64,000 bases of DNA. It comes from Escherichia coli. Its GTDB lineage: Bacteria > Pseudomonadota > Gammaproteobacteria > Enterobacterales > Enterobacteriaceae. Below, piece by piece: positions 61,401-64,000 of the stretch. Numbering within the stretch: position 1 is the first letter of the stretch; every line of letters starts with the position of its first letter. The stretch lies in assembly GCF_016026235.1 (NCBI RefSeq), contig NZ_CP065613.1. The stretch is one strand, 5' to 3'. The position numbers were made by a program.

Positions 61401-64000
61401 CCCTTCACACACCAGCAATTAAAATCCCGCTTCTCCAGATGGAAGAATGCACCAGCAGATACTGGTGATTTTGAGATTACCCATACATTTGATTACGCAT
61501 CAGAAGATGACCTTCGCAATGCAATTAAGCTGATTGAAGACTTCAATACCTCAGAAGATGTGGATGGTGACAAATATAAATCCCGTGGTAACCGCTATAA
61601 CCGTGATGATATCACTCAGGCCATAAATGCTGGTCAATCTCAGCGATACATCACAGAAAAATATGGTATTTCACGGAGACAGTATTTCTACGTTAAATCA
61701 TTGATTAATAAGGACAATTCAAAATAACCATCTAAGTAACGGTAGAATGCACTTTACAGGCAGAGTTGCACCTTAATTTGATAAATTACCTTACCAGCCA
61801 GTGCAACTCCCTCTGTAACCCGCATGGTTACTGGCCTCAGAATGGCTATTTTAAGAGGTCTGAGATGTGTTTTATAGGAAATTTAAAAATGAGCAATTAC
61901 GAATTACAGATTTTTGTTGATAACGACACCGTGACCATGCTTCAACACTTCACTGATGTAGGTATCGCAATTAATTTTGATAAATTACTAAAGCTGATGG
62001 CTGATAATGCAGAAAACATCTCTGACTTTATTCAGTCGGTGGAGTTTAACGAGCCCCGAATGATGCTACCAATTACAGACAGCAGTATGAAGCGTCTTAT
62101 TATTGAGGAAACTAACCGATACAGCGTTAGCCCTGAAAAATATCTCAAGGCGGCTGTAACAATTTTGTACGCTGACAGTATTCTGGTGACGGATTCTGTG
62201 AGGGTTCACTAATGGGTTTAATAATTGCTTGGACGTTGCTTGGCTTATTTGTTGGTTGCTGGGTGGGTAATACGGTAAATAAAAATTGATATTACCAATC
62301 TGTTAAAAAGCTGTTGACAAATAACCTTAAGCATGGCATAATTTTAATTATGGGAGAGCAATTCTCTCTTATTTCTTTCAACAATTCCATCTACGTCTAG
62401 GGATAGTTATTCTGAAAGGTGCAATGCTTTTCGTCATGGCTTATTTAGCCCGCACTAAATAGGCCATATCAAAAATCTTTGTTCATTCATTGAATCCTTT
62501 AGATGTTTTTAATTTCTTCACCTTATGAATAGCCCTTTATAAGAAATTATCTAGGGCTATTCAGTTTTTAAAAAGCATACTTGGCAAACGCTTTTAAGTC
62601 TCTTCTAAGTTTTTTGTATGGCTGTCAAGTATGCTTTTTAAAAACTGAAATACTTTAGCTTAGAAGAGGAAAAAACAATGACAAACGATTTATATTTTAA
62701 CGGTCGAAAGATTGATAGCTTCGGTGACTGGTCACCACAGACTGAACATCCGCTACATATTATTCAGCGTCAAGAGCATGACAAGCGTATTGAGCTTGAG
62801 CAAGAAATCCGAAGGTCACCAAAGGTAATTTCCTTTGTGTCCCCTGAGCCTCAAGAGATGCCTGATGTATGCAAAACTGAATCATTATTTAATCTTGAGC
62901 GTGAATATTACCCACTGCTAAAAGCACAGCGTATTAAACTAGATGATGCTTACGATGCTGTTAAGAACTTCGAAGAAACCTCGAAACCTTCAGAATATGA
63001 TATTGCTTACGAGATTAAGTCAAACCCGTTTATCTATTATGAAGGAAACTTTAATGATGGTTTTGGTACAGCGATTGAAGACGTTCCTAAAGTTCTTCAA
63101 AGTATCCCTGAAGGGTTCCGGTTAATTGATGTCAGACAAGCATTAAGGGGTTCTGGTCAATTTATTCTGATGACTGGTAAAACAGATGAAGAGATTCTTC
63201 AGTTAGCTGAAGCTAATTTGACTAAGCATTATTCCGGTAAACTGGATAAGTTAAAGCAAAAGCTTAAAAAAGAACTTGATAGCATGAAAGAACTTGTTAG
63301 TGAATATGAATCACAGAAGAAGATTGCTATGCAGGCTGATATTGAGCAGCTTACGAAGATTTCTCAGAAATATAGCAAAGCACTTTAATTATGAGGTGGT
63401 GAATGATTGATTTAACAGAACGCTATGAGCTTATTAAAGCAATTAGCGAACGATTGAAAGAACAACCCAACAAACCAAAACGAATCAAATCATCCACCTC
63501 CTCTAAGCAAAATAACAGAATCAGAAGAATCGCTAAATGGTGTCTTGATAAATTACCAAGTGATTGTCAGATTGTCGGTGAAGATGGTAATTATTATCTG
63601 GTTAGGTAAAAATTGGTTGGGTAGAAAATCTACGGGAGAGATTATCGATATTATTCGGTAGTTTCTCCCTTTTTTGTATGTGCACTACGTGAAATCTGTA
63701 AAGCTAATATCTACACTGAAAAATAGAATTTACGTACAACACGCTTAAACAAAGGTATGAGGTGAAAAAATATGAATGAGCAAATTCACAGTTGATAGTT
63801 TTATCGTTGAACTGGGCTTCAATGAGAACGTTATTAAAGGTCTGCAAAAAGTTGAAAAGGCAGCTTTGCAGTCAGCACAAAAAATTGAACGGAATTTGAA
63901 TAGAGCGTTTAAGGTCGATACCAAGCAACTTGACAGCAATTTAACGGCTTCTTTAAAGTCAATGGAGGGGAAGATTAATAAAACTTTTGACCGTCTGGAA

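What the first reader, a model, noticed from the sequence alone, without database searches (positions are those of the whole stretch)
62430..63609. Uncharacterised two-gene unit behind a leader with mutually exclusive hairpins that can sequester the ribosome-binding site
Seen in sequence: upstream of the 236-aa ORF (62678-63388) lies a perfect 22-bp inverted repeat (62562-62583 vs 62626-62647). A 9-nt segment in its loop (tcttctaag, 62601-62609) is the exact reverse complement of cttagaaga (62659-62667), which overlaps the SD gagga. Further upstream are near-palindromes (atagccc...gggctat at 62529-62560; atggcttatttag...ctaaataggccat around 62437-62468). The 236-aa protein and the following 68-aa basic protein (63403-63609) have no motif I can recognise. 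Inference: an attenuator or riboswitch-like leader, or an operator array, controlling a novel cargo module.
Basis: partly seen in the sequence, partly recalled or inferred. Interest (0 to 1): 0.6.

Follow-up and report, generated by a model that had tools for sequence, protein, structure and literature searches.

The report
RBS-masking leader of satellite tail operon
A conserved, heavily folded ~330-nt RNA leader, with a terminator followed by a long hairpin whose loop base-pairs with the ribosome-binding site, most likely keeps the first genes of the tail-gene operon of a small, apparently undescribed E. coli phage-satellite-like island off by default.

Summary
The 22-bp perfect repeat (27 nt with one G·U) and the loop segment complementary to the Shine-Dalgarno region sit where stated. 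Across 17 representative related leaders the long helix (S1) keeps 92% pairing, and 18 of 27 pairs show compensatory changes. Its non-Watson-Crick pairs are mostly G·U on the + strand, so it is an RNA helix. About 60 of 63 distinct leaders carry an 8-12-nt perfect anti-SD in the S1 loop, in four different sequence versions that co-vary with the SD region. Upstream lie a near-consensus sigma-70 promoter conserved in every lineage, two covarying hairpins and an intrinsic terminator. A second conserved terminator follows the 68-aa gene. The two genes are not cargo. They are core genes placed directly before a tape-measure gene and a tube-initiator gene related to Felix O1-like phages. The host is an ~11-kb element with a serine recombinase, found in 474 of 5426 complete E. 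coli genomes. The most likely function is a default-off leader: termination plus RBS masking. How the block is lifted is inferred only; antitermination and RNase III cleavage of S1 are the leading candidates. Classical attenuator, riboswitch and operator readings are not supported. Both proteins remain functionally unassigned, and the 'transposase' label is unfounded.

The parts
62290..62319 (+). Three phased TGTTA-like repeats with 11-nt spacing (TATTA / TGTTA / TGTTG); the last overlaps the -35 hexamer. Candidate protein-binding site.
   Evidence: Read from the sequence. The same phasing is seen in all lineages, including the distant L012 and L015. Any function is inferred.
62314..62342 (+). 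Sigma-70 promoter TTGACA-17-CATAAT with TG before the -10. The transcription start is inferred near 62349.
   Evidence: It scores 11 of 12 and is the best site in the scanned region. The surrounding block is invariant across 9 elements. TTGACA-17-nATAAT is kept in all lineages, and L015 has a 12 of 12 match.
62350..62372 (+). 5' stem-loop at the start of the leader RNA (GGGAGAG...CTCTC).
   Evidence: Compensatory variants occur in L001, L003 and L005. It is present in lineages A-C.
62409..62433 (+). Sequence-conserved block ATTCTGAAAGGTGCAATGCTTTTCG, which includes a small hairpin.
   Evidence: GAAAGGTGCAATGCTTTTCG is invariant in alignment A1. Related sequence is present in L009 and L014. Its role is unknown.
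62436..62467 (+). Leader hairpin 2 (13 bp, 6-nt loop).
   Evidence: At least three different stem sequences keep the pairing across elements.
62526..62569 (+). Terminator-like hairpin (arms 62526-62542 / 62547-62563) followed by GTTTTT. Its U-tract is also the 5' end of S1.
   Evidence: A hairpin plus U-run sits immediately 5' of S1 in every lineage, with different stems and loops. The simple scan calls it a terminator in L015 and calls an extra one in L005. That scan does not call the window copy, and termination has not been shown.
62560..62649 (+). S1: long RNA hairpin with arms 62560-62586 and 62623-62649 (27 bp, one G·U) and a 36-nt loop.
   Evidence: -37.4 kcal/mol. On alignment A4, 92.3% of cells are paired, 18 of 27 pairs carry compensatory changes, and slid controls give 31-48%. 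G·U outnumbers A·C by 51 to 15 cells overall and by 43 to 1 in the inner 13 bp.
62599..62611 (+). Anti-SD segment TCTCTTCTAAGTT in the S1 loop.
   Evidence: About 60 of 63 distinct leaders have an 8-12-nt perfect complement of the SD region in this loop, in four sequence classes.
62657..62669 (+). Partner of the anti-SD, AGCTTAGAAGAGG, which includes the Shine-Dalgarno GAGG (62666-62669) of the 236-aa gene.
   Evidence: It co-varies with the loop segment: CTTAGAAGAG, ACACTTAGA, AGAGGTGAA and AATAGGAAA.
62678..63388 (+). Gene for the 236-aa protein, predicted as an antiparallel coiled-coil hairpin with a small alpha/beta domain. Function unassigned; the RefSeq 'transposase' label is unsupported.
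   Evidence: There are no family hits. The AF2 model has pLDDT 79 and gives only generic coiled-coil fold matches. The family is narrow, 17 clusters at 50% identity.
63403..63609 (+). Gene for the 68-aa basic protein with its own SD (GAGGTGG). Its C-terminal motif KWC.D..PSD.QI.GE...YLV is conserved.
   Evidence: There is no Pfam, PHROG, NCBIfam, PADLOC or PDB-sequence match. It is present in all lineages.
63634..63679 (+). Strong intrinsic terminator after the two-gene unit (15-bp stem, then TTTTTTGTAT).
   Evidence: It is conserved with covarying inner stems in all lineages, including L012 and L015.
63776..64000 (+). Start of the tape measure protein gene, which runs off the window. It is the next gene of the same operon.
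   Evidence: phrog_4036, E = 4e-22. Related loci carry PF20155 TMP_3 followed by PF21821 Dit_like. This DNA is 72-79% identical to the 5' ends of Felixounavirus TMP genes.

Best explanation
The region is the 5' leader and first two genes of the late (tail-module) operon of an ~11-kb integrative, satellite-like element.

**What the sequences show.**

- A near-consensus sigma-70 promoter (62314-62342) precedes a ~330-nt leader.
- The leader contains two covarying hairpins and a conserved block.
- A terminator-type hairpin with a U-run (62526-62569) follows.
- Next comes a 24-30-bp RNA hairpin, S1. Its loop carries a 10-13-nt anti-SD that is complementary to the ribosome-binding site of the 236-aa gene.
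- A second strong terminator follows the 68-aa gene. In short variants it leaves no room for a promoter before the tape-measure gene.

**What I infer.**

- By default most transcripts stop at the leader terminator and yield only a short leader RNA.
- Read-through transcripts fold S1, and the loop clamps the SD in a pseudoknot-like pairing. The 236-aa gene is then not translated, and the untranslated RNA is further exposed to Rho.
- Full expression of 236 aa, 68 aa, TMP and tube initiator therefore needs two things: terminator-resistant transcription, supplied by an element- or helper-encoded antiterminator or a cis-acting leader RNA, and release of the SD.
- The simplest release is RNase III cleavage of the long perfect duplex. 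That would cut the anti-SD loop away from the mRNA.

**Sub-confidences.**

- Cis-regulatory + strand RNA with a selected RBS-masking pairing: about 0.85.
- The terminators make operon expression depend on read-through: about 0.6.
- RNase III is the releasing step: about 0.35.
For: **Anatomy and stability.**

**S1 covariation.**

- On alignment A4, 92.3% of cells are paired and 18 of 27 pairs have changes on both sides. None of 500 shuffles reached the observed values for four of the five measures (11 of 500 for further pair types), and slid controls give 31-48% pairing.
- Mismatches are strand-asymmetric: 51 G·U cells against 15 A·C overall, and 43 against 1 in the inner 13 bp. This is what an RNA helix on the + strand predicts.
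- S1 stays about 24-30 bp long in all classes while its sequence changes.

**Loop-SD pairing.**

- It is present in about 60 of 63 distinct leaders, in four sequence classes.
- It sits at different positions within the loop in different classes.
- Each class has p of about 0.002-0.008 by loop shuffling.
- The SD region is the only strong partner of the anti-SD in every class.

**Promoter and terminators.**

- The promoter is conserved in all lineages.
- A leader terminator is present in all lineages with different stems.
- The terminator after the 68-aa gene is conserved. The TMP start codon lies only about 25-30 nt beyond it in L002 and L005.

**Operon context.** The order 236 aa, 68 aa, TMP, tube initiator holds in every locus.

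**After 5' trimming.** An mRNA starting at or after 62642 has a free SD in the predicted minimum-energy fold.
Against: - No transcript ends, termination, RNase III cleavage or translation data exist for this element. Everything on function is inferred from sequence.
- The window's own leader terminator has a long, imperfect stem and only 5 U. The simple terminator scan does not call it.
- Whether S1 and the loop-SD helix can coexist sterically was not modelled. The linker is only 5-9 nt in class A.
- RNase III is constitutive in E. coli. If it alone released the SD, the gate would not be a switch.
- One lineage (L012/L013) lacks the loop anti-SD. It has only a weak nested alternative (-11.5 kcal/mol, p = 0.054).
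Confidence: 0.6

Rival explanations
1. Fold-back insulation with a separate, helper-specific promoter. The strong promoter and terminator make a stand-alone leader RNA. S1 and the anti-SD serve only to silence accidental read-through transcripts. During helper infection the genes are transcribed from a start point downstream of the anti-SD, within the S1 loop or right arm, so that mRNA lacks the anti-SD and is translated. This is the logic of IS10/IS50 fold-back inhibition.
For: - The anti-SD lies 60-85 nt upstream of the ATG and would be absent from any transcript starting after about 62612.
- The leader has the anatomy of an sRNA gene: promoter, 5' hairpin, conserved block and terminator.
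- The likely helper is a virulent Felix O1-like phage, whose late promoters need not resemble sigma-70 sites.
Against: - No sigma-70-like promoter is detected between 62570 and 62677.
- The TTGGCA-17-TCTAAG candidate is not kept in classes C and D.
- This model does not explain why S1 is kept at 24-30 bp.
- It does not explain the conserved terminator between the 68-aa gene and TMP, which still has to be read through.
Confidence: 0.2
2. Constitutive tuning, not a switch. S1 plus the anti-SD permanently lowers translation of the 236-aa gene relative to downstream genes and stabilises the RNA. All on/off control happens at the promoter, for example through the tandem-RHH protein binding the phased TGTTA repeats.
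For: - A DNA-binding tandem-RHH protein is encoded directly upstream.
- Phased repeats overlap the -35 in all lineages.
- No conserved alternative partner for the anti-SD was found.
Against: - A 13-bp, -19.7 kcal/mol clamp over the SD would nearly abolish translation rather than tune it.
- The 236-aa gene is a conserved core gene that keeps a good SD.
- Two or three strong terminators inside one operon are hard to explain without conditional read-through.
Confidence: 0.13
3. Classical attenuator or riboswitch. Alternative, mutually exclusive hairpins would be selected by a ligand, a leader peptide or a tRNA and would decide whether the SD is exposed.
For: - The leader is highly structured (z = -7.4).
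- It has a conserved unpaired block (62409-62433).
- It contains both a terminator and an SD-masking element.
Against: - No Rfam family reaches threshold.
- S1 and the loop-SD helix are topologically compatible, not alternative.
- S1 is far too stable to be displaced.
- No conserved anti-anti-SD exists.
- Small ORFs in the leader are not conserved (inspection).
- The terminator lies upstream of S1 and overlaps it by only 4 nt.
Confidence: 0.05
4. A DNA-level element. The inverted repeats would be operators, a recombination or packaging site, or an origin bound by a dimeric protein or extruded as a cruciform.
For: - The window copy is a perfect 22-bp palindrome-like repeat.
- TTAAAAAGC also occurs just upstream of the -35 (D19/I24).
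- The element encodes several DNA-binding proteins.
Against: - The arm sequences differ between lineages while pairing is kept.
- Non-Watson-Crick positions are overwhelmingly G·U on the + strand, which is meaningless for duplex DNA.
- In class B the S1 arms changed while the promoter-upstream TTAAAAAGC did not. They are therefore not sites for one and the same protein.
- The loop-SD complementarity has no DNA-level rationale.
Confidence: 0.04

Closest known systems
Lambdoid late-gene control (PR' promoter, tR' terminator, 6S RNA, Q antitermination; the Stx-phage sRNA StxS comes from the same arrangement). From my own knowledge.
   Same: A strong promoter is followed within about 200 nt by an intrinsic terminator, ahead of the structural genes. 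More terminators lie inside the operon, and a short leader RNA is the default product.
   Different: No Q homologue was found. The adjacent protein is a tandem RHH. A Q-binding element and sigma-dependent pause cannot be assessed here. Lambda has no RBS-masking hairpin after tR'.
RNase III-activated translation (lambda N leader, T7 early mRNAs, E. coli adhE) and the lambda sib hairpin. From my own knowledge.
   Same: An RBS is occluded by intramolecular pairing next to a long, near-perfect duplex of at least 20 bp. As with sib, the long duplex exists only in transcripts that read through a terminator, because the terminator's U-tract is part of the duplex.
   Different: Cleavage is untested. 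Here the occluding sequence sits in the apical loop of the duplex and pairs with a site 3' of it, which is a pseudoknot rather than a nested pairing.
IS10/IS50 fold-back inhibition and hok-type fbi elements. From my own knowledge.
   Same: An upstream segment complementary to the RBS silences transcripts that start too far upstream.
   Different: No downstream native promoter was found. The anti-SD is displayed on a conserved 24-30-bp hairpin, and a terminator precedes it.
Loop-to-RBS pseudoknots in IncI-alpha/IncB plasmid repZ/repA control. From my own knowledge.
   Same: A hairpin loop pairs with a sequence next to the RBS of the downstream gene, and covariation maintains the pairing.
   Different: In those plasmids the pseudoknot lies beside the SD and activates translation, and an antisense RNA blocks it. 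Here the pairing covers the SD itself, and no antisense RNA is known.
Phage satellites of virulent myophages (Vibrio cholerae PLE with ICP1); P4, PICI.
   Same: - A small (~11 kb) island.
- A large serine recombinase, as in PLE.
- Its own replication initiator.
- No capsid or terminase genes.
- Genes related to a specific lytic phage group.
- Excised circular forms in metagenomes.
   Different: It carries its own tape measure and tube-initiator genes, related to Felixounavirus. I did not find this described for any satellite family. Helper dependence is untested.
Tape-measure (tail assembly) chaperone gene pair of Felixounavirus (132 aa + 79 aa before TMP).
   Same: Two genes sit in the same position, immediately upstream of TMP and the tube initiator.
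   Different: There is no sequence or profile similarity. The sizes are reversed (236 + 68 aa). The two are separate genes, each with its own SD, and a terminator separates them from TMP.

Membership tests
Any curated Rfam family (riboswitches, leaders, sRNAs) | A covariance-model score at or above the family's gathering threshold | tested here: not met
   The best hit on the leader is rhtB sRNA at 29.2 bits against a threshold of 55. It covers only the terminator hairpin. The other hits are chance miRNA models.
Riboswitch | A sequence-conserved ligand-binding core whose folding competes with an expression platform | tested here: inconclusive
   The S1 loop is not conserved apart from the anti-SD, and no alternative pairing is conserved. 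A conserved block at 62409-62433 remains unexplained. Ligand binding cannot be tested here.
Leader-peptide transcription attenuator (trp type) | A conserved short leader ORF plus an antiterminator hairpin that overlaps the terminator | tested here: not met
   The small ORFs in the leader differ in length and sequence between elements. No conserved antiterminator pairing was found. S1 overlaps the terminator by only 4 nt.
Lambda Q / PR'-tR' late antitermination | A strong promoter followed by a terminator ahead of the late genes, with further terminators in the operon | tested here: met
Lambda Q / PR'-tR' late antitermination | A Q-family antiterminator gene next to the promoter | tested here: not met
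   The 107-aa upstream protein has no Pfam, PHROG or NCBIfam hit and folds as a tandem RHH.
RNase III-processed leader | A coaxial dsRNA of about 20 bp or more | tested here: met
   S1 is 27 bp in the window and 24-30 bp in all classes despite sequence turnover.
RNase III-processed leader | rnc-dependent cleavage in vivo or in vitro | not testable with these tools
   The element is absent from K-12, so published RNase III cleavage maps do not cover it.
RBS-sequestering pseudoknot | A hairpin loop pairs with the SD region 3' of the hairpin, and covariation maintains the pairing | tested here: met
   four co-varying sequence classes, and the SD region is the only strong partner.
IS10-type fold-back inhibition | The gene's own promoter lies downstream of the RBS-complementary segment | tested here: inconclusive
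   No sigma-70-type site was found there. Promoters of other types cannot be scanned.
Transposase (RefSeq name of the 236-aa protein) | A recognisable DDE, HUH, serine or tyrosine recombinase catalytic domain | tested here: not met
   There is no Pfam, NCBIfam, PHROG or PDB-profile hit. The AF2 model is a coiled-coil hairpin with a small domain, and fold hits are generic coiled coils.
Tail assembly / tape-measure chaperones | Homology to known chaperones | tested here: not met
   no similarity to the Felixounavirus chaperones or to any phage record.
Tail assembly / tape-measure chaperones | A G/GT-type frameshifted gene pair | not tested
   The two genes are 14 nt apart and the second has its own SD. 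Frameshifting was not examined. Only the position upstream of TMP matches this family.
Phage satellite | A small integrative island with its own integrase and replication genes, no capsid or terminase genes, and genes tied to a specific helper | tested here: met
Phage satellite | Helper-dependent induction, packaging and transfer | not testable with these tools
   This needs infection experiments.

The most novel reading that the evidence does not exclude
The leader is the helper-sensing gate of a previously undescribed family of E. coli satellites that parasitise virulent Felix O1-like myophages. It would be a cis-acting RNA device combining terminators with an RNase III-type hairpin that carries an anti-SD. 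It would open only when a helper- or element-encoded factor makes RNA polymerase terminator-resistant and the hairpin is processed. Opening would switch on satellite-encoded tape measure, tube initiator and two novel assembly or interference proteins that re-programme the helper's tail assembly.
Probability: 0.2. Interest if true: 0.8.

Novelty: new variant of a known kind. Interest (0 to 1): 0.6.

Why it matters
RBS-masking leaders and terminator-controlled late operons are well known. This one combines three things not catalogued in Rfam: a terminator, a conserved 24-30-bp duplex, and an anti-SD displayed in that duplex's loop. The covariation support is unusually clean.

The leader guards the only phage-like module of an ~11-kb island present in about 9% of complete E. 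coli genomes. That island appears to be a satellite of Felix O1-like lytic phages, which are candidates for phage therapy and biocontrol.

Knowing how the gate opens would show how the island senses its helper. It would also give a direct experimental handle on two conserved orphan proteins that are co-expressed with a satellite-encoded tape measure.

Tried and rejected
**DNA and RNA library searches.**

- blastn of 62200-63700 against the phage and plasmid collections found nothing.
- An Rfam scan at a permissive threshold returned only sub-threshold chance hits.

**Protein searches.**

- PHROGs, NCBIfam, PADLOC, Pfam and PDB-sequence profiles gave nothing for the 236-aa, 68-aa and 107-aa proteins.
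- Fold search of the 236-aa model returned only generic coiled coils.
- Comparison with the Felixounavirus tape-measure chaperones found no similarity.

**Technical failure.** The search for related loci with protein alignment A2 failed because no stretch was conserved enough. I replaced it with promoter-pattern scans.

**Ideas tested and dropped.**

- A conserved anti-anti-SD that would give a three-state switch: none found.
- A sigma-70 promoter between the leader terminator and the ATG: none found.
- A shared protein site between the promoter-upstream TTAAAAAGC and the S1 arms: rejected, because class B changed one but not the other.
- A weak minus-strand promoter-like site at 62784-62757 that could make an antisense RNA: it is at chance level, and the G·U asymmetry favours the + strand.
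- Identity with the Sakai prophage-like element SpLE2: rejected, because SpLE2 sits at a different locus.

**Literature.** Searches for a description of the element found nothing relevant.
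Full report
**1. The observation**

- The perfect 22-bp inverted repeat is 62562-62583 / 62626-62647. It extends to 27 nt arms (62560-62586 / 62623-62649) at 96% complementarity, with a 36-nt loop.
- The loop segment 62600-62609 (CTCTTCTAAG) is the exact complement of 62659-62668 (CTTAGAAGAG). That site abuts and enters the Shine-Dalgarno GAGG at 62666-62669, 8 nt before the ATG at 62678.
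- With G·U pairs the helix is 13 bp (62599-62611 with 62657-62669) plus a 4-bp extension. The predicted duplex energy is -19.7 kcal/mol.
- The two upstream near-palindromes are a 13-bp hairpin (62436-62467) and a 17-nt-arm hairpin (62526-62563) followed by GTTTTT.
- The leader as a whole folds far better than shuffles: -99.8 against -64.7 ± 4.7 kcal/mol, z = -7.4.

**2. What surrounds it**

A near-consensus sigma-70 promoter sits at 62314-62342 (TTGACA-17-CATAAT, TG-extended, 11 of 12). It is the best promoter match in the scanned 3.1-kb region. The leader is therefore about 330 nt long.

A strong intrinsic terminator follows the 68-aa gene (63634-63679). The next ORF, from 63776 to the window end, is the N-terminus of a tape measure protein (phrog_4036, E = 4e-22).

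Upstream genes encode a small serine recombinase, an N6-adenine methyltransferase and a replication initiator.

**3. The element**

The 236-aa protein has thousands of close relatives, almost all from E. coli, Shigella or Salmonella, which RefSeq labels 'transposase'. DNA similarity finds the locus in 474 of 5426 complete E. coli genomes, always on the chromosome.

Annotated copies and metagenomic or genomic copies of distant homologues share one gene order:

1. small serine recombinase
2. methyltransferase and/or small genes
3. HTH replication protein
4. small genes
5. a ~105-aa gene
6. a long intergenic region
7. the 236-aa gene
8. the ~68-aa gene
9. tape measure (PF20155)
10. a Dit-like protein (PF21821)
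11. a large serine recombinase on the opposite strand

Other properties of the element:

- It is about 11-12 kb long.
- It inserts at four or more sites: yciI/tonB, ymdF/wrbA, yecE, and in this window mdtG.
- It occurs as a circular contig. L021 has a 55-nt terminal overlap and is 11,178 bp. L011 is circularly permuted.
- It has no capsid or terminase genes.

The link to Felix O1-like phages rests on three results.

- Its Dit-like protein is 72% identical to the protein encoded just after TMP in Felixounavirus phages. The Bas63 cryo-EM paper calls that protein the tube initiator, gp18 (PMC12609058).
- Its TMP is about 30% identical to Felixounavirus TMP.
- The TMP 5' end is 72-79% identical at the DNA level.

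In those phages the two genes before TMP are tape-measure chaperones. In the element those slots hold the 236-aa and 68-aa genes, which show no detectable similarity to the chaperones.

I found no description of this element in the searchable literature. It looks like a satellite of Felix O1-like lytic phages, but helper dependence is untested.

**4. Comparative analysis of the leader**

I used the nine-element alignment A1. I then added a promoter-pattern scan of genome and metagenome contigs, filtered by tblastn for the 236-aa gene. This gave 72 loci with 63 distinct leaders.

*(a) Promoter.* TTGACA-17-nATAAT is kept in every lineage, and L015 has a 12 of 12 match. A ~55-nt block around the promoter is invariant among close elements. 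Three TGTTA-like repeats phased at 11 nt run into the -35.

*(b) Upstream hairpins.* The 5' hairpin and hairpin 2 keep their pairing with different sequences.

*(c) Leader terminator.*

- A hairpin plus U-run lies immediately 5' of S1 in every lineage, with differing stems and loops.
- In L023 this segment is present as the reverse complement of the usual hairpin.
- The scan tool calls it a terminator in L015 and calls an additional one in L005.
- The tool does not call the window copy.

*(d) S1.*

- On a 17-sequence alignment, 92.3% of cells pair and 18 of 27 pairs show changes on both sides.
- None of 500 shuffles reached the observed values for four of the five measures (11 of 500 for further pair types), and slid controls give 31-48% pairing.
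- Non-Watson-Crick cells are 51 G·U against 15 A·C overall, and 43 against 1 in the inner 13 bp.
- This asymmetry is expected only for an RNA helix read from the + strand.
- S1 stays about 24-30 bp long while its sequence turns over.

*(e) Anti-SD.*

- About 60 of 63 leaders have an 8-12-nt perfect complement of the SD region inside the S1 loop.
- There are four versions: CTCTTCTAAG/CTTAGAAGAG, TCTAAGTGT/ACACTTAGA, TTCACCTCT/AGAGGTGAA and TTTCCTATT/AATAGGAAA.
- They sit at the 5' side, middle or 3' side of the loop, depending on the class.
- Loop shuffling reaches the observed length in 0.2-0.8% of trials per class.
- The SD region is the only strong partner of the anti-SD in every class.
- One lineage (L012/L013) lacks this feature and shows only a marginal nested RBS pairing.

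*(f) Second terminator.*

- The terminator after the 68-aa gene is present in all lineages.
- In short variants the TMP start codon follows it by about 25-30 nt.
- TMP transcription must therefore read through this terminator.

**5. Mechanism**

*Shown by the sequences:* a conserved promoter, a conserved structured + strand leader RNA, conserved terminator-type hairpins before and after the two-gene unit, a long conserved duplex, and a selected loop-SD complementarity.

*Inferred:*

- The default products are short leader RNAs.
- Read-through RNAs fold S1, and the loop masks the SD. This blocks translation and exposes the untranslated RNA to Rho.
- Expression of the whole tail module needs terminator-resistant transcription and release of the SD.

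The anti-SD can sit anywhere in the loop, and the duplex is held at the length RNase III needs. The terminator's U-tract also forms part of S1, so S1 exists only in read-through RNA, as with lambda sib. For these reasons cleavage of S1 by RNase III is the simplest release step. It would detach the anti-SD, and the trimmed mRNA has a free SD in the predicted fold. I put this step at about 0.35.

**6.

- *Mutually exclusive hairpins:* not supported. The topology is a pseudoknot, S1 (-37.4 kcal/mol) is not displaceable, and no third partner exists.
- *Riboswitch or leader-peptide attenuator:* not supported.
- *Operator array:* contradicted by the covariation and the G·U asymmetry.
- *Cargo:* contradicted by the conserved synteny.

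**7. The proteins**

- **236 aa.** It has no family match. The family is narrow, 17 clusters at 50% identity. The AF2 model (pLDDT 79) is an antiparallel coiled-coil hairpin (helices 66-100 and 170-218) carrying a small alpha/beta domain. Only generic coiled-coil fold matches were found. Nothing supports the 'transposase' label.
- **68 aa.** It is basic, with an N-terminal helix-like segment and a conserved C-terminal motif KWC.D..PSD.QI.GE...YLV. It has no match anywhere.

From their position and co-regulation with TMP and the tube initiator, my best guess is that they are assembly factors or helper-interference factors for the tail module. This is inference only.

**8. Verdict**

The finding is a new variant of known kinds of control, namely RBS sequestration and terminator-gated late operons. 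It sits in an element that may itself be a new satellite family.

Noticed in passing
window 57389-64000 and beyond; L001:8500-20300; L009; L011; L021: The host element looks like an undescribed ~11-kb satellite of Felix O1-like (Felixounavirus) lytic phages.

- It has small and large serine recombinases, a methyltransferase and a Rep protein.
- It carries its own tape measure (~30% identity) and tube initiator (72% identity).
- It has no capsid or terminase genes.
- Circular contigs occur in metagenomes.
- It is present in 474 of 5426 complete E. coli genomes, at four or more insertion sites.
   Followed up: partly
[not shown]
   Followed up: partly
window 62213-62290 (+): A 25-aa hydrophobic micro-ORF (MGLIIAWTLLGLFVGCWVGNTVNKN) overlaps the stop codon of the 107-aa gene (TAATG). 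An ORF is kept at this position, in two sequence versions, across the elements aligned in A1 and in L012. Its function is unknown.
   Followed up: no
window 62290-62319 (+): Three TGTTA-like direct repeats phased at 11 nt run into the -35 hexamer of the leader promoter. The phasing is kept even in the distant lineages L012 and L015. This is a likely protein-binding array.
   Followed up: no
L004:9145-9172, L007, L016 (leader); L001:15492-15520, L003, L007, L016 (after the 68-aa gene terminator): A ~28-nt hairpin-forming insert (GAGGATAGTCTTCTATCCGAAGTCTAT) occurs in some elements just after the leader promoter. In some it also occurs just after the terminator that precedes TMP. It behaves like a miniature mobile repeat, or it marks two related sequence contexts (…TTGTATAT…).
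   Followed up: no
window 62678-63388: RefSeq/PGAP names this protein family 'transposase' in hundreds of genomes. No domain, profile or fold evidence supports the name, so it is probably a propagated misannotation.
   Followed up: yes
window 60925-61302: Divergent promoter-like sites (TTGACA-17-TAAGAT on +, TTGTCA-17-TATTAT on -) lie between a 61-aa minus-strand ORF and a 106-aa plus-strand ORF. The C-terminus of the 106-aa ORF reads like a ribbon-helix-helix motif. This may be the element's early regulatory switch.
   Followed up: no
L023 leader (terminator hairpin before S1): In L023 the terminator hairpin segment (GCCCTAAACATAATCTGTGAAGGGC) is the reverse complement of the usual GCCCTTCACAGATTATGTTTAGGGC. 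A local inversion has preserved the hairpin.
   Followed up: no
L006:3693-4001; L015:8697-8972: Some elements carry an extra 91-102-aa gene inserted between the 236-aa and 68-aa genes. In L015 the 68-aa homologue itself (8978-9184) is unannotated.
   Followed up: no
window 63680-63760; L001, L004, L006, L008, L015 equivalents: A conserved ~80-nt block lies between the post-68-aa terminator and the TMP start in the longer variants: GTGCTACGTGAAATCTGTAAAGCTAATAC..ACAC…TTTACGTA. It has a long-range hairpin. It is absent from the short variants, and its role is unknown.
   Followed up: no
window 55891-56862 (-): The element is inserted into mdtG, leaving a truncated gene annotated as a pseudogene in the near-identical genome NZ_CP041392. 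The rest of the window is ordinary E. coli chromosome (csg, mdoGH, msyB).
   Followed up: partly
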